49,451 nucleotides of DNA, taken from the NCBI GenBank assembly GCA_012513855.1, contig JAAZBK010000399.1, positions 1-49,451 on the forward strand, read 5' to 3'. Below the pieces are notes generated by a model. The model saw only the letters and a program-made list of their open reading frames with translations. It was not told the origin of the DNA and made no database searches. Of the stretch, positions 1 to 44,896 are shown piece after piece. The stretch comes from Acidimicrobiales bacterium. GTDB taxonomy: Bacteria; Actinomycetota; Acidimicrobiia; Acidimicrobiales; Iamiaceae. Position 1 is the first letter of the stretch, and each line of letters begins with the position of its first letter. Made by a program: the position numbers and the translations under genes.

Positions 1-761
1 ACGCCCGCCTTCACCATGGTGGCGGCGTGCAGGTAGGCGCTCACGGGAGTGGGGGCCACCATGGCGCCGGGCAGCCAGGCGTGGAACGGGTACTGGGCCG
101 ACTTGGTGAAGGCCCCGAGGAGGATCAGGGCCAGCGCCGCTCCCACCACGCCTCCCGACGGGGGAGCAGCCAGGATCTCCGACAGGCGGTAGGTGCCCGC
201 CTCGTTGCCGAGCAGCAGGAACCCGCCGAGCATGGCGAGACCGCCGGTTCCGGTGACCAGGAGCGCCTGCAGGGCGGCGTTGCGTGCCGGACCCTTCTCG
301 TGACGGTCGCCGATCAGCAGGAAGGACGTGATCGACGTGAGCTCCCAGAACCCGTAGATGACCAGGAGGTTGTCGGCCAGCACGAGGCCGACCATGGCCC
401 CGCCGAAGAGCGTGAGGAGTCCGAGGAGCCGGCCGACCCGGGGATCGGCCGAGTCGAAGTAGCCCGCGGAGTAGATGAAGACCGCCAGCCCGATGCCTGC
501 TGCTAGCAGGACCATCACCGCCGAGAGGCCGTCGAGTCGCAGGTCGAGGTCTACGCCGAGCTCGGGCATCCACGAGACGTGGGCGGTGACCACGTCTCCC
601 CGGTTGACCCCCTTGAGCTTGCTGAGCAGCCAGATCAGGGTGACCCCGGGCACGGTTGCGCAGACCGTCGCGGCCAGCCCGGGACGGATCCGGTTGAGCC
701 GCGCTCCCCCGAGCAGGACCACGAGTCCGACGATCAGGGGCCAGATGAGGATGGCGATCAT
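1..761 (-). CDS. mrpA: Na+/H+ antiporter subunit A (MrpA/MnhA family), 5' part; runs off the window start
   Basis: Manual translation of the minus strand from ATG 761 gives MIAILIWPL...SWMPELGVDLDLRLDGLS...AFTKSAQYPFHAWLPGAMVAPTPVSAYLHAATMVKAG, the MrpA/NuoL signature. Absent from the ORF track because there is no stop in the window. Confidence 0.9.
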   Translation of the reverse strand, partial: MIAILIWPLIVGLVVLLGGARLNRIRPGLAATVCATVPGVTLIWLLSKLKGVNRGDVVTAHVSWMPELGVDLDLRLDGLSAVMVLLAAGIGLAVFIYSAGYFDSADPRVGRLLGLLTLFGGAMVGLVLADNLLVIYGFWELTSITSFLLIGDRHEKGPARNAALQALLVTGTGGLAMLGGFLLLGNEAGTYRLSEILAAPPSGGVVGAALALILLGAFTKSAQYPFHAWLPGAMVAPTPVSAYLHAATMVKAG

Positions 762-920
762 CGCCAGTGGGTCCCGTGAACGGGCCCACCGGTGCCCCGA
801 CGGGGTCCGCTGGTGGGTCGTGGTCGCACGGTAAGGGGGGATCCTACTGGAGGCTCCTCGCCGTCCGGCCCGGAAGGGGGGTGCTTGCATCGTCGGTGCC
901 GGCAGACAACGCTGGTGGGG

Positions 921-1181
921 ATGGCGCTCACAGACCGCGACAAGGCGATCCTCGACTTCGAGCGGATGTGGTGGGCCGACCCCGATGCCAAGGCGAGGGC
1001 CATCCGGGAGCACTTCGAGGTCTCGCCCGCTCGCTACCACGAGCTCCTGGGTGAGATCCTGTCGGATCCGGAAGCCTTCCAACTCGATCCCCTCGTGGCC
1101 CGACGGTTGCGCCGCCAGCGCGAACGACGTCGGCCCGAGTTCGTCGAGGCCCGCCCCGCTAACGATTGGCCCCATCGATGA
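921..1181 (+). CDS. DUF3263 family small protein (Rv0430-like)
   Basis: MALTDRDKAILDFERMWW...KARAIREHFEVSPARYHELL...DPLVARRLRR pattern; sits upstream of a LytR_C gene as in other actinobacteria. Confidence 0.85.
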   Translation: MALTDRDKAILDFERMWWADPDAKARAIREHFEVSPARYHELLGEILSDPEAFQLDPLVARRLRRQRERRRPEFVEARPANDWPHR

Positions 1182-1783
1182 CCGCCCCCGACCACAGCAC
1201 CAGTGGATTCGACTCCAACACCCGTGGCCTCGCCGTGCTGGCCGTGGCGGTGGTGGTGGGGTTGCTCCTCCTGTTGAACGCGGGGAACGGCGGGGCGGCC
1301 GATCAGGTGGCCACCAACGGCTCCGGTGACGGCGGCGAGGTCACCGACAGCACCATCGACGTCTCCGGCCTGGGCGACGACGACGACGAGTCTGTCGACG
1401 AGAGCACCACCACCACGCCTGATCAGACCACCACCTCGAGCGTGCCGGAGACCACCGACACCCGGCCGCCGAACCAGGTGAAGGTCCTGGTCCTGAACGG
1501 TTGCGGAAGTGCCTGCCCCGGGGTGGCGGGCACCACCAGCGCCAGCATCGGCGAGACCGGCTTCGTGATGCAGCAGGCCGGCAACGCCTCCGCCCGGCCG
1601 GCCACCACCGTCGTCTACTTCGCCGAGAGCTACCAGGCCGACGCAGAAGCGGTGGCGGCGGTGATGGGCAAGGCCCCCGACGTGGTCGAGGCCATGCCGT
1701 CCACCTCTCCCGGGCCAGGGGCCGAGAACGCCAACGTGGTGGTGGTCCTGGGCGCAGACACGCCGCCTGCGTCGGGCAACTGA
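1178..1783 (+). CDS. Membrane-anchored LytR C-terminal domain protein (Rv0431/VirR-like)
   Basis: ATGA overlap with DUF3263; N-terminal TM helix, acidic/Thr linker, then VKVLVLNG...GVAG...GNA...TVVYF...VVVVLGAD. Confidence 0.85.
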   Translation: MTAPDHSTSGFDSNTRGLAVLAVAVVVGLLLLLNAGNGGAADQVATNGSGDGGEVTDSTIDVSGLGDDDDESVDESTTTTPDQTTTSSVPETTDTRPPNQVKVLVLNGCGSACPGVAGTTSASIGETGFVMQQAGNASARPATTVVYFAESYQADAEAVAAVMGKAPDVVEAMPSTSPGPGAENANVVVVLGADTPPASGN

Positions 1784-2589
1784 CCTCCGCCGACCAGCTG
1801 GCCGCCGCGCTGGCCGAGATCGTCGCCCGTCCAGAGAAGGCGGTGCTCATGTTCGACTTCGACGGGACGCTGGCCGACGTCGTCGAAGATCCCGCGGCAG
1901 CGCGGCCCCGACCGGGGGTGGTCGACCACCTGGCCGCCCTGGGCCACCGCTACCGCCAGGTCTGCGTGGTGTCGGGGCGGCCCGTCGGCTTCCTGGCCGA
2001 TCACCTGCCCGGCGGCCTGTTCCTGTCGGGTCTCTACGGCATGGAGGAGGTCGACGGCGGTCAGACGGTCGTTCCCGACGAGTTCCTCCGGTGGCAGGAC
2101 GCCGTCACGGGCGCGGTGTCCGATCTGACCACGTCGATCGCCCGAGATGGCCGGCTGACGGGGCTGGAGGTCGAGGACAAGGGCCTGTCGGTGACGGTCC
2201 ACTACCGGCGGCACCCGGAGCTGGGCGAGGCGGCGGTCGATCTCGCCACGCGGATCGCCGGCCGTCACTCGCTCGAGGTGCGCCCGGCTCGCATGTCGGT
2301 CGAGGTGCACCCACCGGTTCCCGCCGACAAGGGGACCGTGGTGCGACGGGTGATCGAGGGCGTCGACGGAGTCGAGGCCGCGGTGTTCGTGGGCGACGAT
2401 GTGGGTGACCTCCCGGCGTTCACCGCTCTGGCCGAGCTCCGGTCCGAGGGGCTGACCACCGCGGCGGTGGCGGTGGCGTCGAGCGAGATGGACCCGCGGA
2501 TGAGGGAGCAGGCCGACATCACCATCGCCGGCTCCGACGTGGAGGAGCTCCTGCGCGCACTGCGCTTCGGAGCGGGCGCCGATGGATAG
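1780..2589 (+). CDS. otsB: Trehalose-6-phosphate phosphatase (HAD)
   Basis: FDFDGTL, VVSGR, GLYGME, VEDKGLSVTVHYR, DKG and VGDDVGD motifs; adjacent to otsA. Start uncertain (CTG 1780 overlaps the upstream stop). Confidence 0.9.
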   Translation: MTSADQLAAALAEIVARPEKAVLMFDFDGTLADVVEDPAAARPRPGVVDHLAALGHRYRQVCVVSGRPVGFLADHLPGGLFLSGLYGMEEVDGGQTVVPDEFLRWQDAVTGAVSDLTTSIARDGRLTGLEVEDKGLSVTVHYRRHPELGEAAVDLATRIAGRHSLEVRPARMSVEVHPPVPADKGTVVRRVIEGVDGVEAAVFVGDDVGDLPAFTALAELRSEGLTTAAVAVASSEMDPRMREQADITIAGSDVEELLRALRFGAGADG

Positions 2590-2631
2590 GTTCCCCTGCG
2601 GCCTCGGACCGACGAACCAGGGAGACCCCCG

Positions 2632-4044
2632 ATGAGCAGCCCCGAAGGCCACCAGCCGTCGCCGGGCGGCGACCGCCCGCTGGTGGTGGTCTCGAACCGG
2701 GGTCCGGTGTCGTTCAGCCTGGTCGACGACGAACCGGTGGTGCGCCGTGGTGCAGGTGGCCTGGCATCGGGCCTGGGGCCGCTGGTCCGTGGCACCGGAG
2801 CGCTGTGGGTCGCCGCGGCCATGACCGACGGAGACCGCGCCACCGCCGCCCGGGGGGTGGTGCCCGCCGACGGCTTCGACGTCCGGTTGCTGGACATCGA
2901 TGCCCGGACCTGGAGCCTCCACTACGACTCGGTGTGCAACGAAGCGCTCTGGTTCGCCCACCACGGCCTGTTCGACTCCGTGTACTCGCCCACGTGGCCT
3001 CCCGGCTGGGTCGACAGCGCCTGGGACGCATACCGAAGGGTCAACGTCGCCTTCGCCGAGGCGGTGGCCGGCGACGCCCCGCGCGATGCGGTGGTGCTCA
3101 TCCAGGACTACCACCTCTGCCTCATGGCCGAGCCGTTGCGGCGGGCCCGGCCCGACCTGGCACTGGTCCACTTCAGCCACACGCCGTTCGCCACCCCGGC
3201 ATGGCTGCGGATGCTCCCCGACGTCGTCCGGACCGAGCTGGTCGACGGGCTCGCGGCCCACCACGCCGTGGGGTTCCACACCGGTAGGTGGGTGGCCGAC
3301 TTCGAGGCTTGCTGTGCAGACCTGGGCATCAGGCCCCCTGCCACCTTCGCGTCGCCGCTGGCCCCCGACCCCGACGACCTTCGGGCCACCGTCGAGTCCG
3401 CGGCGTGCCAGGAGGCCGGCCGCGAGCTCGATGAGATCATCGGCGACCGCGCGTTCGTGGCCCGTGTCGACCGGATCGAGCTGTCGAAGAACATCCTGCG
3501 GGGCTTCGATGCCTTCGCCGCGCTGCTGGAGGCCGATCCCTCGAGGCACGGCAAGGTGGTGTTCGGGGCGTTCTGCTACCCGTCCCGCCAGGGGGTGGCC
3601 GACTACGACCGCTACGCCACGGCGGTGGCCAGCCGGGTTGGGGAGATCAACGAGCGCTTCGGCACCTCCGACTGGACCCCCATCCACTACGACCCCACCG
3701 ACCACTACCCCCGCTCGGTGGCGGCGCTGGTCCGAGCCGACGTCGTGGTGGTGAACCCGGTGCGCGACGGTCTCAACCTGGTGGCCAAGGAGGCGGTGGT
3801 GGTGAACGACCGCGACGGTCAGCTCCTGCTGTCACCCGAGGCCGGGGCCTGGCCCGAGCTGGCCACCCACGCCTGGCGCGCCGACCCGTTCGACGTCGGT
3901 CAGACCGCGAGGGCCATGGCTGGTGCCCTCGACGCCACACCCGGCGAGCGACGGCGGCGCGCCGACGGCCTCCGCTCCGCGGCCACGGCGCGCACCTCGG
4001 CCGACTGGCTGGCCGACCAGCTGGCAGCCGCCCCGGTGCGCTGA
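2632..4044 (+). CDS. otsA: Trehalose-6-phosphate synthase (GT20)
   Basis: VVSNRGP, AGGLASGL, QDYHL, HFSHTPF, RVDRIELSKNILRG and DGLNLVAKE motifs. Confidence 0.95.
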   Translation: MSSPEGHQPSPGGDRPLVVVSNRGPVSFSLVDDEPVVRRGAGGLASGLGPLVRGTGALWVAAAMTDGDRATAARGVVPADGFDVRLLDIDARTWSLHYDSVCNEALWFAHHGLFDSVYSPTWPPGWVDSAWDAYRRVNVAFAEAVAGDAPRDAVVLIQDYHLCLMAEPLRRARPDLALVHFSHTPFATPAWLRMLPDVVRTELVDGLAAHHAVGFHTGRWVADFEACCADLGIRPPATFASPLAPDPDDLRATVESAACQEAGRELDEIIGDRAFVARVDRIELSKNILRGFDAFAALLEADPSRHGKVVFGAFCYPSRQGVADYDRYATAVASRVGEINERFGTSDWTPIHYDPTDHYPRSVAALVRADVVVVNPVRDGLNLVAKEAVVVNDRDGQLLLSPEAGAWPELATHAWRADPFDVGQTARAMAGALDATPGERRRRADGLRSAATARTSADWLADQLAAAPVR

Positions 4045-33484: not shown

Positions 33485-33512
33485 CTCACGCAGCCGGGGC
33501 ACGGCGTGTGAG
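33485..33512. promoter_or_regulatory. NnaR-type inverted repeat upstream of nirB
   Basis: CTCACG-N16-TGTGAG; same arms as the 40759-40785 site; matches the CTCAC..GTGAG NnaR motif as I recall it from Streptomyces/Mycobacterium. Confidence 0.7.
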
Positions 33513-33610: not shown

Positions 33611-36289
33611 ATGGCAAGCGAACCCGGCACCACCACCGACACCTCCAGCGCCCGACTCGACCTCGTGGTCGTGGGCAACGGCATGGTCGGCCACAAGCTG
33701 CTCCAGGCCCTGGCCGACGCCGGTGCGCTCGAGCACGTGGCGGTCACCGTGCTGGGCGAGGAGATCCGTCCGGCGTACGACCGGGTGGGTCTGACGTCGT
33801 GGTTCGAGCGGCGTGACGCCGACGACCTGGCCCTAACCAGTCGTGAGTGGTTCACCGACCAGGGGATCGACCTGCACCTCGGAGACCCGGTGGCGGAGAT
33901 CGACCGTGATGCCAAGGTCGTTCGCACGGTCGGCGGCGCCGAGTTCTCCTACGACCGGCTGGTGCTGGCCACCGGGTCGGCTCCGTTCGTGCCGCCGATC
34001 CCAGGGGCGGAGGGACCCGACCGGTTCGTGTACCGGACCATCGAGGACCTCGAGGCCATCGCAGCCGCCGCCGACCGGCCCGAGGTGACCCGAGGGGTCG
34101 TGGTGGGTGGCGGCCTGCTCGGCCTGGAGGCCGCCAACGCCCTTCGCAAGCTCGGGCTCGACACCCACGTGTTGGAGATGGCGCCCGGCCTCATGCCGGT
34201 CCAGCTCGACGCTCGTGGCGGCGAGGTCCTGCGCAGCCACATCGAAGCACTCGGGGTCACCGTCCACACCGGCGTGTCGACCAGGTCGGTCGACGGCGAC
34301 GAGGGGGTCAGCCAGATCTCCTTCGCCGAAGGCGACCCGCTGCCCACCGACATCGTGGTCTTCTCGGCCGGCATCCGCCCCCGCGACCAGCTCGCCCGGG
34401 ACTGCGGCATCGAGGTCGGCGAGCGGGGCGGCATCGTGGTCGACGGCACCCTGAGCACCTCCGATCCGGCCATCTCGGCCATCGGTGAGTGCGCCCTGTT
34501 CGAAGGCCGGATCTACGGCCTGGTCGCTCCCGGCTACACGATGGCCAGGGTGCTGGCCGCCCACCTGGGCGCTCAGGCCCTCGGCGCCCCTGCCCCCGAC
34601 GACGCCTTCACCCCGGCCGACATGTCCACCAAGCTCAAGCTCCTCGGCGTCGACGTCGCCAGCCTCGGCGACCCGCACGCCGACCGAACCGACCCGGACA
34701 CCCGGGCGCTCGTCTGGGATGACCCGGTGGCCGGCACCTACGAGAAGCTCGTGGTGTCAGCCGACGGCTCGCGAGCGCTCGGTGCTGTCCTGGTCGGGGA
34801 CGCCTCGGCGTACTCGACGCTCCTACAGGTGATCACCGGGACCAGCCCGGTCCCCGACGAGCCCGCGCTCCTCCTGGCCCGCGGTCCACAGCAGGGCAAC
34901 GGCGGGGGAGCCTCGGGACTGGCGGCGCTGCCGGCCGAAGCCGTGATCTGCAGCTGCGAGAACGTCACCAAGGGGAGCATCGAGGACGCGGTCGCCTCCG
35001 GGTGCTCCGACCTCGACGCCCTCAAGTGCTCCACCAAGGCCGGCACCGGATGCGGTGGCTGCGTCCCCCAGGTGACGGCGCTCATGAACGACGCGCTGCG
35101 CCGGGCCGGCGTGGAGGTCTCCACCGACCTGTGCCCGCACTTCGCCCACACCCGGGCCGACCTCTTCGACCTGGTGCGAATCAACGGCATGACCTCCTTC
35201 GCCGAGGTGCTGGAGGCCTACGGATCCGGAGCCGGTTGCGACATCTGCAAGCCCACGGTCGGCTCGATCCTGGCCACGGTGGTGAACGAGCACATCCTCG
35301 ACGGAGATCGCGCCGCCATCCAGGACACCAACGACCGGTTCCTGGCCAACATGCAGAAGGACGGCACCTACTCGGTGGTCCCCCGGGTGCCGGGCGGTGA
35401 GATCACACCGGAGAAGCTGATCGTGATCGGCGAGGTCGCCCGCGACTTCGACCTCTACACCAAGATCACCGGCGGCCAGCGCATCGACCTGTTCGGCGCC
35501 ACCGTCGACCAGCTTCCGGTGATCTGGAAGCGGCTCGTCGATGCGGGCTTCGAATCGGGCCACGCCTACGGCAAGTCGCTGCGGACCGTGAAGTCGTGCG
35601 TGGGTGAGACGTGGTGCCGCTACGGCGTCCAGGACTCGACGGCCATGGCCATCCTCCTGGAGGATCGCTACAAGGGCCTGCGTTCGCCGCACAAGATCAA
35701 GATGGCCGTGTCGGGCTGCGCCCGGGAGTGCGCCGAAGCCCAGAGCAAGGACGTCGGCGTCATCGCCACCGAGCGGGGCTGGAACCTGTACGTGGGCGGC
35801 AACGGCGGCAAGCAGCCCCGCCACGCCGACCTGCTGGCGGAGGACCTGTCGGACGACGAGCTGGTCAGGGCGATCGACCGCTACCTCATGTACTACGTGC
35901 GCACCGCCGACCGGCTTCAGCGCACCAGTACCTGGGTCGAGGGCCTCGAGGGCGGTCTCGACCGGCTGCGTGCGGTGATCTTCGACGACGTGCTGGGCGT
36001 GGCCGCCGAGCTCGACGCGGCGATCGCCCACCACCTCGACACCTACGAGTGCGAGTGGGCGGCCACGCTGGAGCGCCCGGAGCGCCTGGCCCGCTTCACC
36101 ACCTTCGTCAACGCACCGAGGGTCGCGGATCCCACGATCTCGTTCGTGAAGGAGCGGGGTCAGATCCGCCCGGGCACGAAGGTGCTGGCCGGCGCAGTCC
36201 CGTCAGATGGCGCCGCCGGCGTCGACGGTGTGCCCGTCATCGTCCGTTCCAAGAGCCAAGAGCTCGATCTCGTGAAGGTGGAAGCATGA
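33611..36289 (+). CDS. nirB: NADH-dependent nitrite reductase large subunit
   Basis: GNGMVG, ATGS, GGGLLGLE, CSCEN, CGGC, CDICKP, TGGQRIDL, KSCVGETWCRYG, SGCARECAE. Confidence 0.97.
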   Translation: MASEPGTTTDTSSARLDLVVVGNGMVGHKLLQALADAGALEHVAVTVLGEEIRPAYDRVGLTSWFERRDADDLALTSREWFTDQGIDLHLGDPVAEIDRDAKVVRTVGGAEFSYDRLVLATGSAPFVPPIPGAEGPDRFVYRTIEDLEAIAAAADRPEVTRGVVVGGGLLGLEAANALRKLGLDTHVLEMAPGLMPVQLDARGGEVLRSHIEALGVTVHTGVSTRSVDGDEGVSQISFAEGDPLPTDIVVFSAGIRPRDQLARDCGIEVGERGGIVVDGTLSTSDPAISAIGECALFEGRIYGLVAPGYTMARVLAAHLGAQALGAPAPDDAFTPADMSTKLKLLGVDVASLGDPHADRTDPDTRALVWDDPVAGTYEKLVVSADGSRALGAVLVGDASAYSTLLQVITGTSPVPDEPALLLARGPQQGNGGGASGLAALPAEAVICSCENVTKGSIEDAVASGCSDLDALKCSTKAGTGCGGCVPQVTALMNDALRRAGVEVSTDLCPHFAHTRADLFDLVRINGMTSFAEVLEAYGSGAGCDICKPTVGSILATVVNEHILDGDRAAIQDTNDRFLANMQKDGTYSVVPRVPGGEITPEKLIVIGEVARDFDLYTKITGGQRIDLFGATVDQLPVIWKRLVDAGFESGHAYGKSLRTVKSCVGETWCRYGVQDSTAMAILLEDRYKGLRSPHKIKMAVSGCARECAEAQSKDVGVIATERGWNLYVGGNGGKQPRHADLLAEDLSDDELVRAIDRYLMYYVRTADRLQRTSTWVEGLEGGLDRLRAVIFDDVLGVAAELDAAIAHHLDTYECEWAATLERPERLARFTTFVNAPRVADPTISFVKERGQIRPGTKVLAGAVPSDGAAGVDGVPVIVRSKSQELDLVKVEA

Positions 36290-36663
36290 TGTCCCGTTGG
36301 ATCCGAGTGGTTCCGACCGACGACCTGATCGAGGGTCGCGGCGTGTGCGGCCTGGTGGGCGAGTCCTGCGTCGCCGTGTTCCGCCTCCCCGGCGGCAGCT
36401 TCGCGGCGGTCGGGGGGATCGATCCCCGTAGCGGGGCGAACGTGATGGCCCACGGGCTCACCGGGTCGGTGGAGGTCGACGGCCAGGACGTGGCGTTCGT
36501 GGCCTCACCCCTCGACAAGCACCGCTACCGCCTGGACACCGGCGATGCACTGGCTTCCGACGAGCCCGGCCTCGGCTGCTGGCCGTTCCGGGTGGTCGAT
36601 GACATCGTCGAGGTCGCCGCGGCCGTCGGAGAGTGGGTCGCCCCCGGGCCCGTGGTCGGCTGA
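36286..36663 (+). CDS. nirD: Nitrite reductase small subunit
   Basis: ATGA overlap with nirB; VAVFR, DPRSGANVMAHGL, VASPLDKHRYRLDTG. Confidence 0.92.
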   Translation: MMSRWIRVVPTDDLIEGRGVCGLVGESCVAVFRLPGGSFAAVGGIDPRSGANVMAHGLTGSVEVDGQDVAFVASPLDKHRYRLDTGDALASDEPGLGCWPFRVVDDIVEVAAAVGEWVAPGPVVG

Positions 36664-36777: not shown

Positions 36778-39441
36778 ATGGTCGAACCAACGGCGATGAA
36801 TCGGGGTCAGATGACCGAACCGGCGACTGAGCACCTCTCCCGGGCAGCGATGGTCGTGGTCCGCTTCGACGGCCCGGCGATCGTCAGGCACGTGGCGGCG
36901 CCGCCCTACGAGCCGGCGGCGGCGATGCGGTTCGACCTGGAGCTCGGCGACCTGCGGTGGCTGGCTCGCGCCCGTGGCGCGGCCCTCTCAGACGTGGTCG
37001 AAGGCAGCGGGGATGGTGCGCCCGCCCCACGGCCGGAGCTCGTTCAGGCCCTGGCCGACTTCTCCCTGATCGAGGATGGTCCTCCGCACGCCGCTGGAGC
37101 CCCCGCTGCTGCACCACCGCGGCTCGGGGTCGCACCTCCGGCGGGGGCTGAGCTACAGCTCGCCATCCCCACGGTCTGCTCCATCGGCACGAACACGTTC
37201 GACCTCTTCGGCCACGACGGCCAGCTCGCAGCCTCGCTGAGCCCGGTCGAGCTGGCCGTTGCGTGCTCGTTCTGCTCGCCGCGGACGACAGAGGACTCCT
37301 TCATCGAGCAGTCGTCCCGGTTGGGCGCCGAGGCCTTGGATGCCGAGCACCACCGGGACCTGGTCGCCTTCCTCTTCGGCTCAGGCCTGGTGAGGGAGCA
37401 CTCGTCGGGGAGGGTCTCCACCAACAAGGAGGAGGAAGGGCTCCGCATCGGGATCCTGGCCACGATGCGCCTGCGGGCCAACACCGCTGCCCTGCTCGAC
37501 GAGCTGAAGGCCGAACCGGCGGGACAGCCTGGAGTCGGACCGGCGAAGGTGTTCGGCGTCCAGGTCGCCGGCAACGTCCCGCCGCTCTCGACGGGGATGG
37601 TGATGGCCTCGGTGCAGGCCGCCGCCCTGGAGCACCCCGAGATCGCCCGGTCGTTCGACCTGCGCCCCCACTGGATCATCGATCCCGACGATGCGATTGC
37701 GACGGAGCACCCGTCGATCTACCTCTTCACCAACTACATCTGGTCCCACGAGCAGAACCTCGACTTCTCCAGGGCGCTCAAGGAGCGGCACCCGAACGCC
37801 ATCACGATCCACGGTGGACCGGACTGCCCCACCTACCCGCGAGACACCGAGATCTACCTGCGCAACAACCCGCAGGTGGACATCATGGTGCGCGGCGAGG
37901 GGGAGCAGACGGCAGCCGAACTGTTCAAGGCTCTGGCTCCCACCATCACCAGCTCTGGCGGACCGGATCTCTCGGTGCTCCGCGACGTCCCCGGTCTCGC
38001 CTTCCAACTGGACGGTGAGATCGTCCGCACCGATGACCGGGAGCGGATCACCGATGTCGGAGCCACGCCGTCGCCCTTCCTCTCGGGGATCTTCGACGTG
38101 TTCGCCGAGACCGGCGACATCACCCTGGCCATAATCGAGACCAACCGCGGGTGCCCCTACGGATGCACCTTCTGCGACTGGGGATCATCGACCAACTCGA
38201 GGATCCGAAAGTTCGACATCGAACGGGTGTACGCCGAGTTCGAGTGGTGTGCGCGCAACCGGGTGGAACGGGTGTTCCTGGCCGATGCCAACTTCGGCAT
38301 CTTCTCTCGCGACGTCGACATCGCCCACCACATGGTCGGGCTGAAGGAGAAGTACGGCTACCCGAAGCGGCTGATGACCAACTACGCCAAGAACACGGTC
38401 AAGCACCTGCGGGAGATCGTGGAGATCCTCGCCAAGGGCGACGTGCTGTCGGAGGGACTCCTCTCGCTCCAGACGATGGACGACGCCACCCTCAGCACCA
38501 TCCGCCGGTCCAACATCAAGCTGGAGAAGTACGAGGCCCTGGCCAAGGAGTTCCACGAGGCCGAGATGCCGTTGTTCGTCGACCTCATGCTGGGCCTGCC
38601 CGGCCAGACCGTGGAGTCGTTCAGGAACGACCTCCAGCAGTGCGTCGACCGTGAGGTCAACGCCAAGGTGCACACCACCGAGCTGCTCGTGAACAGCCCG
38701 ATGAACAACCCCGCGTATCGCGACGAGCACCAGGTGGTGACCACCCGAGCCCCGGGGCCCACCGGCAAGGGAACCGCCGCCGCTGCTCTGCTCGGACCGT
38801 CCCTGGTGGTCTCCACCTCGACGTTCACCCGCGAGGACTACCGCGACATGGACCTCATGCGCAGGAGCTACCTGCTCCTCGAGAACCTCGGTGTGATGCG
38901 TCACGTCTCGCGCTTCGTCCGCCGTGAGATGGGCACACCCGAGGTCGAGCTGATGGAGACCGTTCGCCACCTGGTGACGCGCGACCGGGGCCGTTGGCCG
39001 ATGCTCGAAGCCACCGTCCTGGCCGTGCCGAACCACCTCGTGCCCCCCGTGAGCTGGGCGTTCTACATCGACGAGCTGCGCGAAGTGCTCGTCGGCCAGG
39101 TGGGGGTGGCGGCGGGCTCGGCGCTGGAGACCGTGCTGGCCGTGCAGCACGCGGTGCTGCCCGCTCCCGGGCGCGATCTTCCGCTGAAGATAGAGCTGGC
39201 CCACGACTACCCGGCCTGGTACGGGTCGGTCATGAAGGCCAAGGACGACGGCCACCTCCACGACTGGGAGACGGTCGTCGGACGGCTGGAGGACCTCGGT
39301 CCGACCACCTTCGAGGTCGACGACCCCCACGACGTCGCCAGCCGCAGCATGGGCATTGGAACCTCGCTCTACCCCTACCTGGACTGGGAGCTCCAGTCGC
39401 CGGTCGCTCGGGCGATGCCGGCGCACCATCGGGACAACTGA
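36778..39441 (+). CDS. Cobalamin-dependent radical SAM protein with long N-terminal extension
   Basis: B12-binding domain (PPLSTG, TNYIWS, HGGP, VRGEGE); ETNRGCPYGCTFCDWG (CxxxCxxC at 38152-38175); DANFG; LMLGLPGQT. Start could be 36778, 36796 or 36811; TACACT at 36759. Confidence 0.92.
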   Translation: MVEPTAMNRGQMTEPATEHLSRAAMVVVRFDGPAIVRHVAAPPYEPAAAMRFDLELGDLRWLARARGAALSDVVEGSGDGAPAPRPELVQALADFSLIEDGPPHAAGAPAAAPPRLGVAPPAGAELQLAIPTVCSIGTNTFDLFGHDGQLAASLSPVELAVACSFCSPRTTEDSFIEQSSRLGAEALDAEHHRDLVAFLFGSGLVREHSSGRVSTNKEEEGLRIGILATMRLRANTAALLDELKAEPAGQPGVGPAKVFGVQVAGNVPPLSTGMVMASVQAAALEHPEIARSFDLRPHWIIDPDDAIATEHPSIYLFTNYIWSHEQNLDFSRALKERHPNAITIHGGPDCPTYPRDTEIYLRNNPQVDIMVRGEGEQTAAELFKALAPTITSSGGPDLSVLRDVPGLAFQLDGEIVRTDDRERITDVGATPSPFLSGIFDVFAETGDITLAIIETNRGCPYGCTFCDWGSSTNSRIRKFDIERVYAEFEWCARNRVERVFLADANFGIFSRDVDIAHHMVGLKEKYGYPKRLMTNYAKNTVKHLREIVEILAKGDVLSEGLLSLQTMDDATLSTIRRSNIKLEKYEALAKEFHEAEMPLFVDLMLGLPGQTVESFRNDLQQCVDREVNAKVHTTELLVNSPMNNPAYRDEHQVVTTRAPGPTGKGTAAAALLGPSLVVSTSTFTREDYRDMDLMRRSYLLLENLGVMRHVSRFVRREMGTPEVELMETVRHLVTRDRGRWPMLEATVLAVPNHLVPPVSWAFYIDELREVLVGQVGVAAGSALETVLAVQHAVLPAPGRDLPLKIELAHDYPAWYGSVMKAKDDGHLHDWETVVGRLEDLGPTTFEVDDPHDVASRSMGIGTSLYPYLDWELQSPVARAMPAHHRDN

Positions 39442-39542: not shown

Positions 39543-39596
39543 GTCATGCTCGGGACACCGCGGCGAAACCGTTCCGAAACACCGCTGGGCCAACCT
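39543..39596 (+). promoter_or_regulatory. GlnR-type box array and -10 of nnaR
   Basis: GTCAT-N6-GACAC-N6-GAAAC-N6-GAAAC (11-bp phasing), then N10-CAACCT-N6-ATG. Confidence 0.7.
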
Positions 39597-39602
39597 CGGC
39601 GG

Positions 39603-40751
39603 ATGACGCTCGCGCCGCTCGCCGGTTACACGGTGGGGATCACAGCCGATCGACGTGCGGAGGAGCAGGGAACGCTGCTCTCGCGCCTCGGCGCATCGGT
39701 GCTGCACGGGCCGGTGATCCGCACCCGTCCCCTCAGCGAGGACGTGCGCGCCGCCACGGAGAAGGTGATCGCCGATCCGCCCGACGTTCTGGCCATCGTC
39801 ACCGCGCTCGGCGTCCGGGGCTGGTTCAGCGCGGCCGAGAGCCTGGGGTTGGGCGAGGACCTGTTCGACTCCCTCACCGTTACGCAGACCGGTGAACCCC
39901 GCGGCCTCGTGGTCCTCGCCCGAGGCCCGAAGGCGGCCGGCGCTGCGATGTCGCTGGGGATCGACGTCACCTGGCGGGCACCGGAGGCCCGCGTCTCGGA
40001 CCTCATCGACCACCTCCGATCGGGAGCTTCGCGGGCCATGGAGCCCGGGACGCGCGTTGCGATCGTGCTCGACGGTTCGCCCACCAGCGCGCTGGTGGAC
40101 GCGGTCTCGTCGTTCGCTACCGGCGTGGAGGTCACCGCGATCCCGGTCTACCGCTGGGAGCTACCCGACGATCCCGGGCCAGCCGAACGCCTCATCTCGG
40201 CGATGGTCGAGGGCGTCGTCGATGCGGTGACGTTCACGTCGTCGCACGCGGTCGCGAACTTCGCAGCCCTGGCCGAGGGTGCTGGCATGCTCGATGGCGT
40301 CCGAACGATGTTCGAGCGGGGAACGACCGTGCCGGTGGCCGTGGGTCCGGTGACGGCGGAGCGCATCGTCGAACTCGGGTTCACCACCCCGGTGGAGCCT
40401 CCCACCTTCCGGCTCGGGGCCATGGTCCGGTCGTTGACCAACACGTTGCAGAACTGCTCGGCAGAGCTTCGGCTCGCCGATCACGTCGTGCGCATCCAGG
40501 GCCGGATGGTGCAGGTCGACGCCGAGGTGCCCGTCCTCCTGACCGACCGGGAACGGGCGGTGCTGGCCGTGCTCTCCCGCCGGCCCGGCGTGGTGGTCTC
40601 CAAGGGCGAGCTCCGCATGGAGGTGTGGGACAATGGCGCTGACGACCACGCGGTGGAGGTCACGGTCGGACGGCTACGCCGCCGGCTCGGACCGGCAGCG
40701 GACGGCATCGAGACGGTGATGCGGCGGGGCTATCGCCTTTCGCCGTCGTGA
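39603..40751 (+). CDS. nnaR: HemD-like/winged-helix regulator of nitrate assimilation (NnaR)
   Basis: PLAGYTVGITADRR, ARGPKA, PVYRW, DAVTFTS, VGPVTA, then OmpR-type wHTH (HAVEVTVGRLRRRLG, TVMRRGYRL); nir/nas context. Confidence 0.9.
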   Translation: MTLAPLAGYTVGITADRRAEEQGTLLSRLGASVLHGPVIRTRPLSEDVRAATEKVIADPPDVLAIVTALGVRGWFSAAESLGLGEDLFDSLTVTQTGEPRGLVVLARGPKAAGAAMSLGIDVTWRAPEARVSDLIDHLRSGASRAMEPGTRVAIVLDGSPTSALVDAVSSFATGVEVTAIPVYRWELPDDPGPAERLISAMVEGVVDAVTFTSSHAVANFAALAEGAGMLDGVRTMFERGTTVPVAVGPVTAERIVELGFTTPVEPPTFRLGAMVRSLTNTLQNCSAELRLADHVVRIQGRMVQVDAEVPVLLTDRERAVLAVLSRRPGVVVSKGELRMEVWDNGADDHAVEVTVGRLRRRLGPAADGIETVMRRGYRLSPS

Positions 40752-40758
40752 CGCCGTG

Positions 40759-40785
40759 CTCACAAGCCGGTCGACCGTCTGTGAG
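40759..40785. promoter_or_regulatory. NnaR-type inverted repeat upstream of the nitrate reductase operon
   Basis: Perfect CTCACA-N15-TGTGAG. Confidence 0.78.
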
Positions 40786-40852: not shown

Positions 40853-40903
40853 ATGACGACTGCATCCGAGCTCCTGGCGGCCCCGGTAGGGGACCGGCGA
40901 TGA
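40853..40903 (+). CDS. Putative leaderless u[19 protein letters not shown]
   Basis: ATG at the leaderless position of the predicted promoter; its TGA overlaps the next ATG (ATGA 40900-40903). Confidence 0.5.
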   Translation: MTTASELLAAPVGDRR

Positions 40904-42633
40904 GCTCGTCGGCGGTGGCCGGCTTGGGCCTCGATGCGGGAGTGCTGACGGCACCGCGCTCGCGCGACCTGCTCGGGACCGAGCTCACGCCCATCGACAT
41001 CCTCCTCGGCCGTCAGGCGGAGATGACCCCGGTCGAGCGCTTCGCCCGTCTGCACGAGGACGACCTCGTCCCCGCCGGGGAGCGTTGGTGGAGCGAGCGG
41101 CTCCCCACCGCTCTGCCGGGTGTGGGCCAGCAGTACGCCTTTGCGGTCGACATGGACTCCTGCACCGGGTGCAAGGCGTGCGTGTCGGCCTGCAACAACC
41201 TCAACGGGCTCGACGGCGACGAGCAGTGGCGCACGGTCACCACGGTCCACGGCGACACGCCGGCCGGCCCGTCGGTGCTCACCGTCACCGCGGCGTGCCA
41301 CCACTGCGTGGAGCCTGCCTGCATGGCGGGGTGCCCGGTCGATGCGTACGAGAAGGACCCGATCACCGGCATCGTGGCCCACCTCGACGACCAGTGCATC
41401 GGTTGCTCCTACTGCACGCTGACCTGCCCGTACGAGGTGCCGCTCTACAACTCGTCGCTCGGCATCGTCCGCAAGTGCGACATGTGCCGCGGTCGCCTGG
41501 CCGACGGCGAGGCTCCCGCTTGCGTCCAGGGCTGCCCGAACGGTGCCATCACCATCACGGTGGTCGACGTCGACGAGGTGATCGAGGGCCTGGAGCGAGA
41601 CCTGGAGGTGGCCGCGGCCGCCGATGGCGTCGCCGACCGCCCCCGGCTGGTGCCGGGAGCACCGGACTCCACGCTCACGGTCCCGACCACGCAGTACCGG
41701 TCGAGCCGGACGTCTCACGGATCGTTCGCCGACCACCGGGTGGTCAAGCCCGGTCACGCGCACACACCGCTGGCCGTGATGCTCACCCTCACCCAGGTGG
41801 CGGTGGGGACGGCGGTGGTCGACGCCGCGGTCTCCCCGCTGGCCGCCGAGCACGTTCCCCGCTCGGTTCCGGCGCTGGCGCTCGGGGTGGCCCTGGTGGC
41901 TCTGGCAGCATCGGTGGGCCACATCGGCCGGCCGCTCTACGCCTGGCGGGCCATCCTGGGCTTCCGGCACTCCTGGCTGAGTCGGGAGATCGCCGCGTTC
42001 GGTGCGTTCGCCGGACTCGGGGTCGCCCTCGCCGGCGCGGTGTTCCTGGAGCTGGACGCTGCGCTGATCACGCTCCTGCGCCTCGGCACCGTGGCGGCGG
42101 GTCTGGCCGGCGTCGCCTGCTCGGTGATGCTCTACGCGGTGACAGGTAGAAGGTGGTGGAGGGTGCGCACCAGCAGCATCCGCTTCGCCGGAACGATGGC
42201 CGGCGCCGGTGGCCTGCTGGTGGCGGCGGTGACGCTCGGCGGAGCGGTGGACGACAGCACCACCGGGCCGATCGACGTGGCGACCGTCCTCCTCCTGGTG
42301 GTGGCCGCATCCACCGTGGTGAGCCTGCTGGCTGCCGTCTCGACCCTGGCCCGTCACAGCGCGACCGTGGGCGACGATCTGGCCGCCACCCGCCAACTTC
42401 TGCTGGGACCGCTGGCCGGCCTCGTCCGGCTGCGGGTCGCCGCCTCGATCCTCGGTGGCGTGGTGATCCCGCTGGTGGTCGTGCTAGCGCTGCCGGCGGA
42501 CAGGCCGGTCGGTTGGGAGGCGCCGGGGGCGCTGGGCCTGGCGCTGGTGGTCTTCACGATCGGTGAGCTGTTCGACCGGCGGCTCTTCTTCCTCGCTTCG
42601 GTGGCGCCCCGTCGCTACGGAGACATCAGATGA
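40900..42633 (+). CDS. Fused 4x[4Fe-4S] (DmsB/NrfC-like) and DmsC-type membrane anchor subunit
   Basis: [48 protein letters not shown]; then [25 protein letters not shown], about 8 TM helices, ELFDRRLFF. Confidence 0.92.
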
Positions 42634-42643
42634 GGAACCTCCG

Positions 42644-44896
42644 ATGAAGAGCCCCGTGGAACTGCTGCGGCCCCGCAAGGACGGCCCGCTCACCGATCGC
42701 CTCCGGCGCGAGCGCCCCGGCTTCGGGCTGCCCCAGATCCCCGCCGGTCGGACTCCCACCGCCACCACCCGCCTCACCTGTGGCTTCTGCTCCACGGGCT
42801 GCGGTCTCGACGTGCACCTGCACGACGGAGAGGCGGTGGGCCTCACGCCCAGCAACGACCACCCGGTCAACCTGGGCATGGCGTGCCCCAAGGGCTGGGA
42901 GGCGCTCACCCCGCTGGCCGCCAGCGATCGGGCCACCACGCCCCTGCTGCGCGACGACAACGGCAAGCTCCGCCCCGTCGACTGGAACACCGCGCTCGCC
43001 ACCTTCACCGAGCGGATGAAGGCCATCCAGGCCGAGCACGGTCCAGCGTCGGTGGCCTTCCTGTCCACCGGGCAGATCGTCACCGAGGAGATGGCGTTCC
43101 TCGGGGCGTTGGGCAAGTTCGGGATGGGGATCGTCCACGGCGACGGCAACACCCGCCAGTGCATGGCCACCGCGGTGGTGGCCTACAAGGAGGCGTTCGG
43201 GTTCGACGCGCCGCCCTACACCTACGCCGACTTCGAGCAGTCCGACGTGATGGTCCTGATCGGGTCGAACCTGTGCGTGGCCCACCCGATCATGTGGGAG
43301 CACATCGTCCGCAACCCGCACTCGCCCGAGATCGTGGTGATCGATCCCCGTCGCACCGAGACGGCGTCGGCCGGGACCCTCCACGTAGCCCCCAACCCCA
43401 AGACCGACCTCACGCTGCTCTACGGCCTGGCCCACGTGATCATCGGGAACGGGTGGGTGGACCGGGAGTTCGTCGACGCGCACACCACCGGCTTCGCGGA
43501 GCTGGCCGACCACGTGGCCGCCTTCACGCCCGACAGGGTGAGCGCGGAGACCGGTGTCGATGTCGCCACGCTGAAGCGGACCGCGGAGCTGATCGGCACA
43601 GGCGAGCGGGTATCGCTGTGGTGGACCATGGGCGTCAACCAGAGCCACCAGGGCACCAAGACGGCTCAGGCCATCATCGACCTGGCCCTGCTCACCGGCA
43701 ACATCGGTCGCCCCGGCACCGGCGCCAACTCGATCACCGGCCAGTGCAACGCCATGGGATCGCGGCTCTTCTCCAACACCACCGGTCTCCTCGGCGGTCA
43801 CGACTTCGCCAAGCCGGAGCACCGGGCCAAGGTCGCCGGGATCCTCGGGATCGACGAGTCGGTCATCCCCACGGAACCGAGCTGGGCCTACGACCGCATC
43901 ATCGAGGGCATCAACCGGGGCGAGATCCGGGGTCTGTGGGTGATCGCCACCAACACGTCGCACTCCTGGATCAACCAGAGCGACGCGCGAGAGCTGCTCG
44001 ACAAGCTCGACTTCCTGGTGGTCCAGGACATGTACTCCACCACCGAGACGGCCCAGCAGGCCGACCTGGTGCTGCCCGCTGCCGGCTGGGCCGAGAAGGA
44101 GGGCACGTTCATCAACTCCGAACGGCGACTCGGGATCGTCAAGCGGGTGGCCCGAGCGCCCGGACAGGCGCTGTCCGACTTCTTCATCTTCCGGGCCATC
44201 GCCGACGCCTGGGGCTGCGGCGAGGTGTTCCGGCGCTGGACAGACCCGGAGTCGGTGTTCGAGATCCTGCAGGAGCTCACTGCAAACCAGCCCTGCGACA
44301 TCACCGGCGTGAGGGGGTACGAGGAGGTCGACGGTGGCCACGTCCAGTGGCCATACCGGACCGAAGACCGAATCGATTCCCACACGACCGGCGATGTGGC
44401 CGGTGACCCGACCGCGGCGAACGGGCAACGTCGCCTGTTCGCCGACGGTCGGTTCTTCACCCCCGACGGCCGGGCCCGGCTGCTGTTCACCGAACCGGCC
44501 GGTCCGCCCGAGAAGCTGTCGCGGGCATACCCACTCGTGCTCCTGACCGGTCGGGGCACCAGCAGCCAGTGGCACACCGGCACCCGTACGTCGAAGTCGC
44601 CCACGCTCCGGGCCCTGGCACCCGACGACACGTGGGTCGAGATCGATCCGGCCGACGCGGCGGAGCGTGGCATCAGCGGCGGTCAGGTCGTCGCCGTCCG
44701 ATCGAGCCGTGGCTCGATGCGGGCCCGCGCCCACGTCACGCCCACGGTCGGCAAGGGCCGGGTGTTCGTGTCGATGCACGACGCCCGCACCAACCGCCTC
44801 ACGTTCCCCGCGTTCGACCCCCAGTCGCGCCAGCCGTCCTACAAGTACGCCGCCGTCGAGGTGTCGCTCCCGGAACCCTGGGATCCGCCGGACTGA
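42644..44896 (+). CDS. Molybdopterin nitrate reductase catalytic subunit (Nas/Nap type), no Tat signal
   Basis: CGFCSTGC...[44 protein letters not shown]...[17 protein letters not shown]. Confidence 0.92.

What the first reader, a model, noticed from the sequence alone, without database searches (positions are those of the whole stretch)
40900..44896. Candidate quinol-fed, membrane-anchored assimilatory nitrate reductase (Tat-less Nas/Nap enzyme plus fused DmsB-DmsC partner)
Seen: the Mo subunit has nitrate-reductase motifs (NTRQCM, WTMGVNQ, GQCNAMG). It has no Tat signal with a hydrophobic core and no C-terminal BFD-like extension. Its upstream partner is one polypeptide with four [4Fe-4S] motifs plus a DmsC-type anchor. 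The promoter has NnaR- and GlnR-type sites, and nirBD is nearby. Established: characterised assimilatory nitrate reductases take electrons from NADH (diaphorase or NirB) or from ferredoxin/flavodoxin, while DmsB/DmsC modules connect Mo enzymes to the quinone pool in respiration. Inference: this is a cytoplasm-facing nitrate reductase run off menaquinol but regulated for assimilation, fitting none of Nas, Nap or Nar. I recall similar gene pairs in Planctomycetes/Verrucomicrobia annotations but know of no biochemical characterisation.
Basis: partly seen in the sequence, partly recalled or inferred. Interest (0 to 1): 0.85.

Follow-up and report, generated by a model that had tools for sequence, protein, structure and literature searches.

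The report
Membrane-anchored, quinol-fed assimilatory nitrate reductase
Beside nitrate-assimilation genes sits a nitrate reductase paired with one protein that fuses an iron-sulfur wire to a membrane anchor predicted to face the cell interior, so this bacterium and many relatives likely reduce nitrate for growth with electrons from membrane quinol instead of NADH or ferredoxin, an untested design.

Summary
Observation confirmed. 42644-44896 encodes a signal-less molybdoenzyme with a nitrate-reductase active site; it groups with Nas/Nap, apart from formate dehydrogenases. 40900-42633 encodes four [4Fe-4S] motifs fused to an 8-helix DmsC/NrfD anchor that keeps the quinol-site residues of E. coli DmsC (76 of 76 sequences). 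Its charge bias is the reverse of DmsC and like SoeC, so wire and quinol site likely face the cytoplasm. A complex model supports binding (0.85; best control 0.18). The pair recurs in six phyla; in 41 sampled genomes 35 had nirB/nirA and 30 a nitrate transporter nearby; in 10 of 15 genomes it is the only strong Nas/Nap-like hit. NnaR-like palindromes precede this operon and nirB. Best reading (0.68): an electroneutral, inward-facing menaquinol:nitrate reductase for assimilation. Against: no assay or expression data, no narK found in this assembly, a second NasC-like gene on another contig. Precedents lower the novelty: inverted SoeC anchors, and M. tuberculosis NarGHI, which also assimilates. 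Eight literature searches found no description. This scan already reported the same system on other DNA (35 notes, at least 33 genomes).

The parts
33485..33512 (+). NnaR-like palindrome (CTCACG-N16-TGTGAG) upstream of nirB
   Evidence: motif from PMC6277429
33602..36289 (+). nirB, NADH nitrite reductase large subunit
   Evidence: NCBIfam TIGR02374 1026 bits, cut-off 578
36286..36663 (+). nirD, Rieske small subunit
   Evidence: Pfam Rieske_2 80 bits; TIGR02378 64.1, under its cut-off 74.65
39546..40751 (+). nnaR-type regulator (HemD + OmpR-type DNA-binding domain); true start probably ATG 39603
   Evidence: Pfam HEM4 + Trans_reg_C; NF005568 295.8, cut-off 273
40759..40785 (+). NnaR-like palindrome CTCACA-N15-TGTGAG
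   Evidence: like sites before nirB or narK in L005, L026, L033, L057
40803..40829 (+). GlnR-type boxes GTAAC-n6-CACAC-n6-GAAAC (middle box degenerate)
   Evidence: consensus from PMC10704036
40900..42633 (+). fused partner, 577 aa: N-terminal docking arm (aa ~30-52), four [4Fe-4S] motifs (aa 77-220, nt 41128-41559), 8-helix DmsC/NrfD anchor (aa 289-565, nt 41764-42594) with H341, S358, E363
42644..44896 (+). Mo-bisPGD nitrate reductase catalytic subunit, 750 aa, one [4Fe-4S] motif, no signal peptide, no C-terminal extension

Best explanation
The two genes encode a signal-less nitrate-reductase-type molybdoenzyme and a fused iron-sulfur/membrane-anchor protein that likely form a complex on the inner face of the membrane and likely reduce nitrate for assimilation with electrons from menaquinol. 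Proposed path: menaquinol is oxidised at the His341/Ser358/Glu363 pocket on the cytoplasmic side, electrons pass through the four-cluster domain to the Mo subunit's own cluster (C46/49/53/81, K83) and on to Mo, nitrate becomes nitrite in the cytoplasm, and NirBD (NirA in other genomes) reduces it to ammonium. Protons would be released and consumed on the same side, so this step would be electroneutral, unlike NarGHI; the gain would come upstream, because NADH can first pass through a proton-pumping dehydrogenase. Expression would be under NnaR/GlnR in actinobacteria and sigma-54 in planctomycetes. Shown: genes, motifs, conservation, gene linkage. Predicted: fold, topology, subunit contact. Inferred: substrate, quinol donor, physiological role, regulation.
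For: Active site matches NapA (C-M, M-G-x-N-Q, T-G-Q) not Fdh (C/U-H, R-G-Q) in PDB alignments; NTRQCM in 72 of 76 rows, the other 4 cut or broken. Trees put it with Nas/Nap; the split from the Fdh, NasC-like and DmsA rows has SH-aLRT 99.6 (FastTree 0.99). H341/S358/E363 align with E. coli DmsC H65/S82/E87 and are invariant in 76 of 76 full-length partners, as are all 16 Cys; PMC8076601 names these residues as the quinol site. K+R excess on the Fe-S side in 76 of 76 (mean +14.3, minimum +9); window 21 vs 2, SoeC-like anchor 21 vs 0, E. coli DmsC 4 vs 8. Anchor folds like ActC (Z 22.3, rmsd 3.3, 275 aligned) and PsrC (Z 20.2, rmsd 3.8, 245 aligned). Complex score 0.85, best of 3 controls 0.18; mark reached by 116 of 157 solved and 2 of 215 mismatched pairs; runs agree in at least 90% of contacts, partner pLDDT at least 82; contacts join Mo 77-86 to partner 89-103 and use both family-specific N-terminal arms. 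Mo gene directly downstream in 75 of 80 loci, the other 5 at contig ends; nirB/nirA in 64 of 80 and 40 of 42 with full flanks. In 41 loci from evenly drawn genome samples: nitrite reductase 35, transporter 30 (ABC type 11), NnaR-like 13, any of these 39. In 151 planctomycete genomes the 14 with this Mo type are the same 14 with an adjacent partner. Only hit above 150 bits in 10 of 15 genomes, including a one-contig genome of the same genus. Sigma-54-type motif within 600 bp upstream of these operon genes 13 of 24 times, 1.1 expected (motif recalled). menB present, narG not found in the own genome.
Against: No biochemical, genetic or expression data. No narK-type transporter found in the own assembly (88.7% complete), though same-class relatives carry one between nnaR and the partner gene. 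The own genome has a second, NasC-like enzyme on contig C442 (NF047855 795 bits, cut-off 1100), and S. cellulosum So0157-2 has two, so the pair is not always the sole candidate. In 2 of 41 sampled loci the intact Mo gene lies away from the partner (G611, G516). The sister Mo enzyme of Cetobacterium has no adjacent anchor. NirBD is also used in anaerobic nitrite removal (own knowledge). The best single NCBIfam score of the Mo subunit is Fdh-alpha (483.5), just above NasA (462.2), all under cut-off. The complex pass may partly reflect likeness to solved Mo/four-cluster pairs. Cytochrome bd subunits score as high as PsrC in the fold search (Z 18-21), so the fold alone shows no function. Genomes are related, so counts are not independent.
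Confidence: 0.68

Rival explanations
1. Same quinol-fed, inward-facing enzyme, but its main role is redox balancing or low-oxygen nitrate reduction to ammonium together with NirBD, with assimilation secondary.
For: DmsB/DmsC modules are respiratory in known systems (PMC8076601). NirB is the commonest neighbour (48 of 80). The sister enzyme is in an anaerobe (Cetobacterium). Some acidobacteria with only 'nasA' genes release nitrite (PMC5900883 passage; not shown to be this family).
Against: NirA in 17 of 80 and 13 of 41 loci, ABC nitrate uptake genes in 11 of 41, amt in 4 of 80, NnaR/GlnR-type and sigma-54-type sites. No narG, nrfA or nor family recurs among neighbour clusters that I identified; 6 reading frames with two or more CxxCH in 5 of 41 loci, not examined further. 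An N-side quinol site gives no redox loop.
Confidence: 0.15
2. The anchor is mainly a tether; electrons reach the four-cluster domain from NirB/NirD, ferredoxin or a flavoprotein, as in classical Nas.
For: NirBD, CysJ-like or FNR-domain genes are usual neighbours; NirB-to-Nas transfer through NirD is known in Paracoccus (recalled).
Against: Quinol-site residues invariant in 76 of 76; soluble donors vary between loci (NirB, NirA+FNR, NirA+CysJ) while the anchor is constant; no C-terminal [2Fe-2S] entry domain on the Mo subunit.
Confidence: 0.08
3. Quinol-fed and assimilatory, but the anchor also moves protons, making the step electrogenic.
For: E556 (74 of 76) and R560 (76 of 76) in helix 8 are conserved; NrfD-like proteins are proposed ion translocators (PMC8076601); the reaction has about 0.5 V to spare (nitrate +433 mV from PMC10100899; menaquinone about -70 mV recalled).
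Against: The same paper finds half-channels poorly defined in DmsC/SoeC/PsrC; E. coli DmsC has the same E and R; an inverted anchor would reverse the channel direction.
Confidence: 0.05
4. A formate dehydrogenase or other oxyanion enzyme, as automatic labels say ('formate dehydrogenase iron-sulfur subunit', 'DMSO reductase anchor').
For: Source names; top PDB and NCBIfam scores are Fdh by a small margin.
Against: Met follows the Mo-ligand Cys and Thr replaces the Fdh Arg; tree position; nitrate-specific neighbours.
Confidence: 0.04

Closest known systems
Assimilatory nitrate reductases NasA/NasC/NarB/NasN
   Same: Cytoplasmic Cys-ligated Mo-bisPGD subunit with one N-terminal [4Fe-4S], same active-site motifs, 30-37% identity, clustered with nirBD/nirA, narK/nrtABC, nnaR.
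   Different: No diaphorase, diflavin or C-terminal [2Fe-2S] module; fixed partner is a four-cluster protein fused to a membrane anchor; forms its own clade.
SoeABC sulfite:quinone oxidoreductase
   Same: Three-module layout (Mo, four-cluster, DmsC-type anchor) facing the cytoplasm with an inverted anchor (PMC8076601). An Azospirillum anchor beside xsc, which I take for SoeC-like, shares the HLGRP...SWLSRE loop, scores higher to the family profile than E. coli DmsC (69.7 vs 54.9 bits) and has the same charge bias.
   Different: Different Mo clade and substrate; Soe reduces quinone, this would oxidise quinol; B and C are separate genes and follow A.
E. coli DmsABC / T. thermophilus PsrABC
   Same: Four-cluster subunit, 8-helix heme-free anchor, H65/S82/E87 quinol-site residues, quinol-to-Mo direction.
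   Different: Tat-exported and periplasm-facing, opposite charge bias, unfused, different substrate, anaerobic respiration.
NarGHI (including the dual-use enzyme of M. tuberculosis)
   Same: Membrane-bound, cytoplasm-facing, quinol-fed nitrate reduction; in M. tuberculosis it also serves assimilation (PMC7816997 passage).
   Different: NarG is a distant Asp-ligated enzyme of about 1,230 aa and NarI a diheme anchor with an outward quinol site (established knowledge); here a Nas/Nap-type subunit and a heme-free inverted anchor.
NapA with NapC or NapGH
   Same: Same catalytic radiation and motifs; fed from quinol.
   Different: Periplasmic with Tat signal; different quinol dehydrogenases; no napB/D/C here.

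Membership tests
Nas (NasA/NasC/NarB) | Cys-ligated Mo-bisPGD subunit with nitrate-reductase active site in the Nas/Nap clade | tested here: met
   under the NCBIfam cut-offs of the haloarchaeal NasA and NasC models
Nas (NasA/NasC/NarB) | Cytoplasmic, no export signal | tested here: met
   0 of 76 with Tat pattern, DmsA control positive; motif test only
Nas (NasA/NasC/NarB) | Soluble enzyme fed by NAD(P)H module or ferredoxin/flavodoxin | tested here: inconclusive
   No fused or dedicated soluble module; constant membrane partner; the real donor cannot be assayed here
Nas (NasA/NasC/NarB) | Linked to assimilatory nitrite reductase, transporter and nitrogen-control sites | tested here: met
   transporter not found in the own assembly
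Nas (NasA/NasC/NarB) | Required for growth on nitrate as N source, repressed by ammonium | not testable with these tools
   needs mutants and expression data
Nap | Tat signal peptide, periplasmic | tested here: not met
Nap | napB/napC/napD/napGH partners; NapA model over cut-off | tested here: not met
   TIGR01706 323.8 vs 930.55; no such genes beside the pair in the window
Nar | NarG-type catalytic subunit with NarH and diheme NarI | tested here: not met
   no narG match at this locus or over cut-off in the genome; anchor is Pfam DmsC
CISM enzymes with NrfD/DmsC anchor | Mo subunit + four-cluster protein + 8-helix NrfD-fold anchor | tested here: met
CISM enzymes with NrfD/DmsC anchor | Quinol-site His/Ser/Glu beside the Fe-S domain | tested here: met
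   76 of 76
CISM enzymes with NrfD/DmsC anchor | Quinol turnover | not testable with these tools
   needs assay
DmsABC | Tat-exported DmsA-clade subunit, periplasm-facing anchor | tested here: not met
   TIGR02166 133.9 vs 777.7; opposite charge bias
SoeABC | Inverted, cytoplasm-facing anchor | tested here: met
   (charge bias, one SoeC-like comparison)
SoeABC | SoeA-clade catalytic subunit in a sulfur context | tested here: not met
   Nas/Nap clade and nitrate neighbours; SoeA itself was not in the tree
Formate dehydrogenase (FdhF/FdsA) | Cys/Sec-His and active-site Arg | tested here: not met
   Cys-Met and Thr

The most novel reading that the evidence does not exclude
A fourth architecture of prokaryotic nitrate reductase: a two-polypeptide, heme-free, inward-facing quinol:nitrate oxidoreductase dedicated to aerobic assimilation. 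It would be the only route to nitrate nitrogen in many Planctomycetota, Verrucomicrobiota, Myxococcota, Acidobacteriota, Poribacteria and Acidimicrobiia, and would let cells keep the protons pumped by complex I while assimilating nitrate.
Probability: 0.55. Interest if true: 0.82.

Novelty: new variant of a known kind. Interest (0 to 1): 0.68.

Why it matters
Textbook classes tie donor to role: NAD(P)H or ferredoxin for assimilation, quinol for respiration. A widespread enzyme that feeds assimilation from quinol through an inverted DmsC anchor would break that rule with a dedicated design, not a dual-use one. About 1,600 stored stretches in the GTDB collection match the type I patterns (estimate), and 3 to 9% of sampled genomes in five groups carry a linked pair or its partner gene, mostly mislabelled as formate dehydrogenase or DMSO reductase parts. 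It would change energy-cost estimates for nitrate use in soil and aquatic bacteria, and gives a small heme-free model for inverted NrfD anchors, of which only SoeC is described in the survey I read.

Tried and rejected
1) A 1,725-aa NirB-NirD-partner reading frame in L025 looked like a fusion link, but NirD's normal C-terminus continues in another frame: a frameshift, rejected. 2) Search for stand-alone anchors gave 13 short hits, mostly on contigs under 2.6 kb; no evidence for a split form. 3) tblastn of the whole anchor on plasmids gave nothing; the first four helices gave only 7 weak Azospirillum hits (E 6-7), followed up by profile. 4) RNA runs: no RNA holder listed. 5) NtcA-type and FNR-type motif scans gave scattered, mostly intragenic hits, not used. 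6) No solved structure of this family: best PDB sequence hits are 341 bits for the Mo subunit and Fe-S-domain-only for the partner. 7) Literature searches listed no paper on this architecture; passages read in PMC10609526, PMC8808070, PMC13608581, PMC3404531, PMC5900883 did not describe it. Two reviews on bacterial nitrate assimilation were not held; subscription journals are largely unsearched. 8) No culture phenotype could be tied to a genome shown to carry the pair. 9) Weak hits in Acidobacteriota and one planctomycete (L144, L148-L151, L164) proved to be fused partners behind an unrelated Mo enzyme and were left out of the 41-locus count, as were the five centre genomes.
Full report
Setting. 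The window is contig C310 of a 3.75 Mb, 540-contig, 70% GC assembly, 88.7% complete. The nearest named homologues of the partner are from Acidimicrobiales. Gene order on the + strand: nirB, nirD, a B12 radical-SAM gene, nnaR, a 148-bp gap, the fused partner, the Mo subunit.

Catalytic subunit. The 750-aa protein from ATG 42644 has the three Mo-enzyme Pfam domains and nothing else. NCBIfam scores it under every cut-off, with Fdh-alpha (483.5), haloarchaeal NasA (462.2), NasC (409.9) and NapA (331) on top, so scores do not decide. Residues do: against the 723-aa NapA of PDB 2jim it keeps N-x-R-x-C-M, W-x-M-G-x-N-Q and T-G-Q-x-N-A, whereas the F420 formate dehydrogenase has His after the ligand and Arg before GQ. 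Two trees with 20 and 19 reference or paralogue sequences, mostly from annotated plasmid and E. coli records, put the family in one clade (support 1.0 and 100) inside the Nas/Nap radiation, split from the Fdh, NasC-like and DmsA rows at 0.99 and 99.6 (22 family rows in the first, 10 type I and 6 type II in the second; one frameshifted Poribacteria row dropped from the second). Its sister is a Cetobacterium enzyme (41% identity) that lacks both the N-terminal arm and an adjacent anchor. The 45 residues before the first Cys are conserved in the family (GPLT.EL.R.PG.FGLGQVP), not hydrophobic, and 0 of 76 match a twin-arginine pattern that does detect DmsA.

Partner. 577 aa: an N-terminal arm, 16 Cys in four cluster motifs, a linker and a DmsC domain. 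The AlphaFold model (mean pLDDT 80.9, pTM 0.81; Fe-S region only 60-85) has eight membrane helices and matches ActC (Z 22.3) and PsrC (Z 20.2); cytochrome bd chains score alike, so the fold is only consistent. In 76 full-length sequences (of 81; 5 cut or short ones dropped) all 16 Cys and H341, S358 and E363 are invariant and align with E. coli DmsC H65, S82, E87, which PMC8076601 (parts 3 and 4 of 7 read) lists as quinol-site residues, H65 and E87 with mutational support. Loops on the Fe-S side carry more Lys+Arg in 76 of 76 (mean +14.3; internal loops alone +8.8). One method on four proteins gives 21:2 for the window, 18:4 for type II, 21:0 for a SoeC-like anchor and 4:8 for E. coli DmsC. 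With the Fe-S domain fused to a signal-less N-terminus, the anchor is most likely inverted, as the same paper expects for SoeC. Caveat: the partner's first 20 residues are mildly hydrophobic (1.39) but have no basic region and lie outside the conserved part.

Do they bind? ESMFold2 on the Mo subunit (1-743) and partner residues 26-280 scored 0.85 against a best control of 0.18 (mark reached by 116 of 157 solved and 2 of 215 mismatched pairs; contacts agree at 90% or more; partner pLDDT 83). The region by the Mo subunit's cluster (77-86) touches the partner's first cluster motif (89-103), and the tightest contacts use the partner's family-specific arm (35-43 on 480-534). Mo/four-cluster pairs are solved, so part of the pass may be likeness.

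Distribution and context. A GTDB scan found 584 relatives in 24 of 64 parts (about 1,600 stretches estimated) and returned the best 80, from Acidimicrobiia, Planctomycetota, Myxococcota, Verrucomicrobiota, Acidobacteriota and Poribacteria. The Mo gene follows directly in 75 of 80 (5 at contig ends); nirB or nirA is in 64 of 80 and 40 of 42 with full flanks; a transporter in 37. Evenly drawn samples gave partner hits in 14 of 251 own-class, 15 of 151 Planctomycetota, 9 of 121 Acidobacteriota, 9 of 121 Verrucomicrobiota and 5 of 101 Myxococcota genomes, centres included. Leaving out the 5 centres and 6 loci with an unrelated Mo enzyme, 41 loci remain: Mo adjacent 37 (2 contig ends, 2 elsewhere in the genome), nitrite reductase 35 (NirB 22, NirA 13), transporter 30, NnaR-like 13, any marker 39. 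A second clade (type II, GNTTLCM/WTMGVNH, 10 of the 41) has the same layout. In Planctomycetota the 11 type I and 3 type II Mo genes lie in the same 14 genomes as an adjacent partner. Of 15 genomes searched whole, 10 have no other hit above 150 bits, 2 have only a hit with an in-frame TGA (Sec-Fdh-like), 2 have untyped hits of 217-266 bits, and S. cellulosum has two NasC-like paralogues.

Regulation. NnaR's motif in mycobacteria is ctCAC(a/c)-16N-(t/g)GTGag near a GlnR box (PMC6277429, passages). The window has such palindromes before the operon (N15) and before nirB (N16), with a GlnR-type site 17 bp downstream of the first (consensus from PMC10704036 passages). Four related loci have the palindrome before nirB or narK. 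In 108 loci, 13 of 24 sigma-54-type motifs lie within 600 bp upstream of these nitrogen genes against 1.1 expected (motif recalled, related genomes not independent). All of this is sequence inference.

Mechanism. Menaquinol (menB is present) would be oxidised at an inward pocket and nitrate reduced in the cytoplasm; the drop from about -70 mV (recalled) to +433 mV (PMC10100899 passage) is ample. Nitrite reduction needs lower-potential electrons, which fits the separate NADH-linked NirB or NirA plus flavoprotein in these clusters (inference). The step would be electroneutral; a NuoG-like gene on C421 (by recalled motif) suggests NADH could first pass complex I.

Against. No assay, mutant or transcript. 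No narK found in this assembly. A NasC-like enzyme behind a weakly NarI-like membrane gene lies on C442 and could serve nitrate reduction here. A redox-balancing role is not excluded.

Known versus new. It works like a Nas catalytic subunit on a Soe-type inward anchor. It fails membership of Nap, Nar, Dms and Fdh, meets the Nas criteria except the donor, and meets the CISM layout. Quinol-fed assimilation is known from M. tuberculosis NarGHI (PMC7816997 passage citing Malm 2009, itself not read). The NrfD survey parts I read name no nitrate-linked group ('nitrate' occurs once in its main text; supplements not opened). Eight searches found no description, within a library that lacks most subscription papers. 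Earlier notes of this scan report the same system in at least 33 other genomes; I had reached this reading before consulting them and they are not independent support.

Verdict. Real, conserved and widespread; a new variant of known kinds, likely a quinol-fed assimilatory nitrate reductase (0.68). Interest 0.68.

Noticed in passing
L081 (G000:C442) 1-3216, - strand: A second nitrate-reductase-like gene (NGRLCM, NasC-like, 795 bits) directly behind a membrane gene with a weak NarI match (E 0.0026), cut by the contig end; a close relative is in S. cellulosum (L087). Possibly another membrane-linked Nas-type system.
   Followed up: partly
window 36778-39441: An 887-aa B12-binding radical-SAM gene (weak KedN5 match, 259.7 vs 700) sits between nirD and nnaR, where most relatives have no such gap.
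   Followed up: no
L126-L129, L141-L143, L146, L147, L159: Type II clade of the same system: partner without the long N-terminal arm, Mo motifs GNTTLCM and WTMGVNH, same nirBD/nirA/nnaR context.
   Followed up: partly
L144, L148-L151, L164: Signal-less fused Fe-S/DmsC proteins with the same SWLS-E loop lie behind an unrelated Mo enzyme (140-186 bits) with no nitrate genes seen; the fused module seems to serve other substrates too.
   Followed up: partly
L016, L022, L058: Poribacteria Mo subunits carry a 203-aa C-terminal tail that resembles a duplicated piece of the Mo domain (L100).
   Followed up: no
L030, L036, L059, L076, L133, L135: An FNR-type domain lies between the nitrite reductase gene and the partner gene, fused to NirA in L059 (965 aa); elsewhere NirA pairs with a CysJ-like flavoprotein (L018, L020, L038, L045, L066).
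   Followed up: partly
L157 (G611) and L145 (G516): Partner gene beside nirA without an intact adjacent Mo gene; an intact type I Mo gene lies on another contig or 94 kb away.
   Followed up: yes
L025 6521-11698: NirB and NirD appear fused in one frame; the further read-through into the partner is a frameshift.
   Followed up: yes
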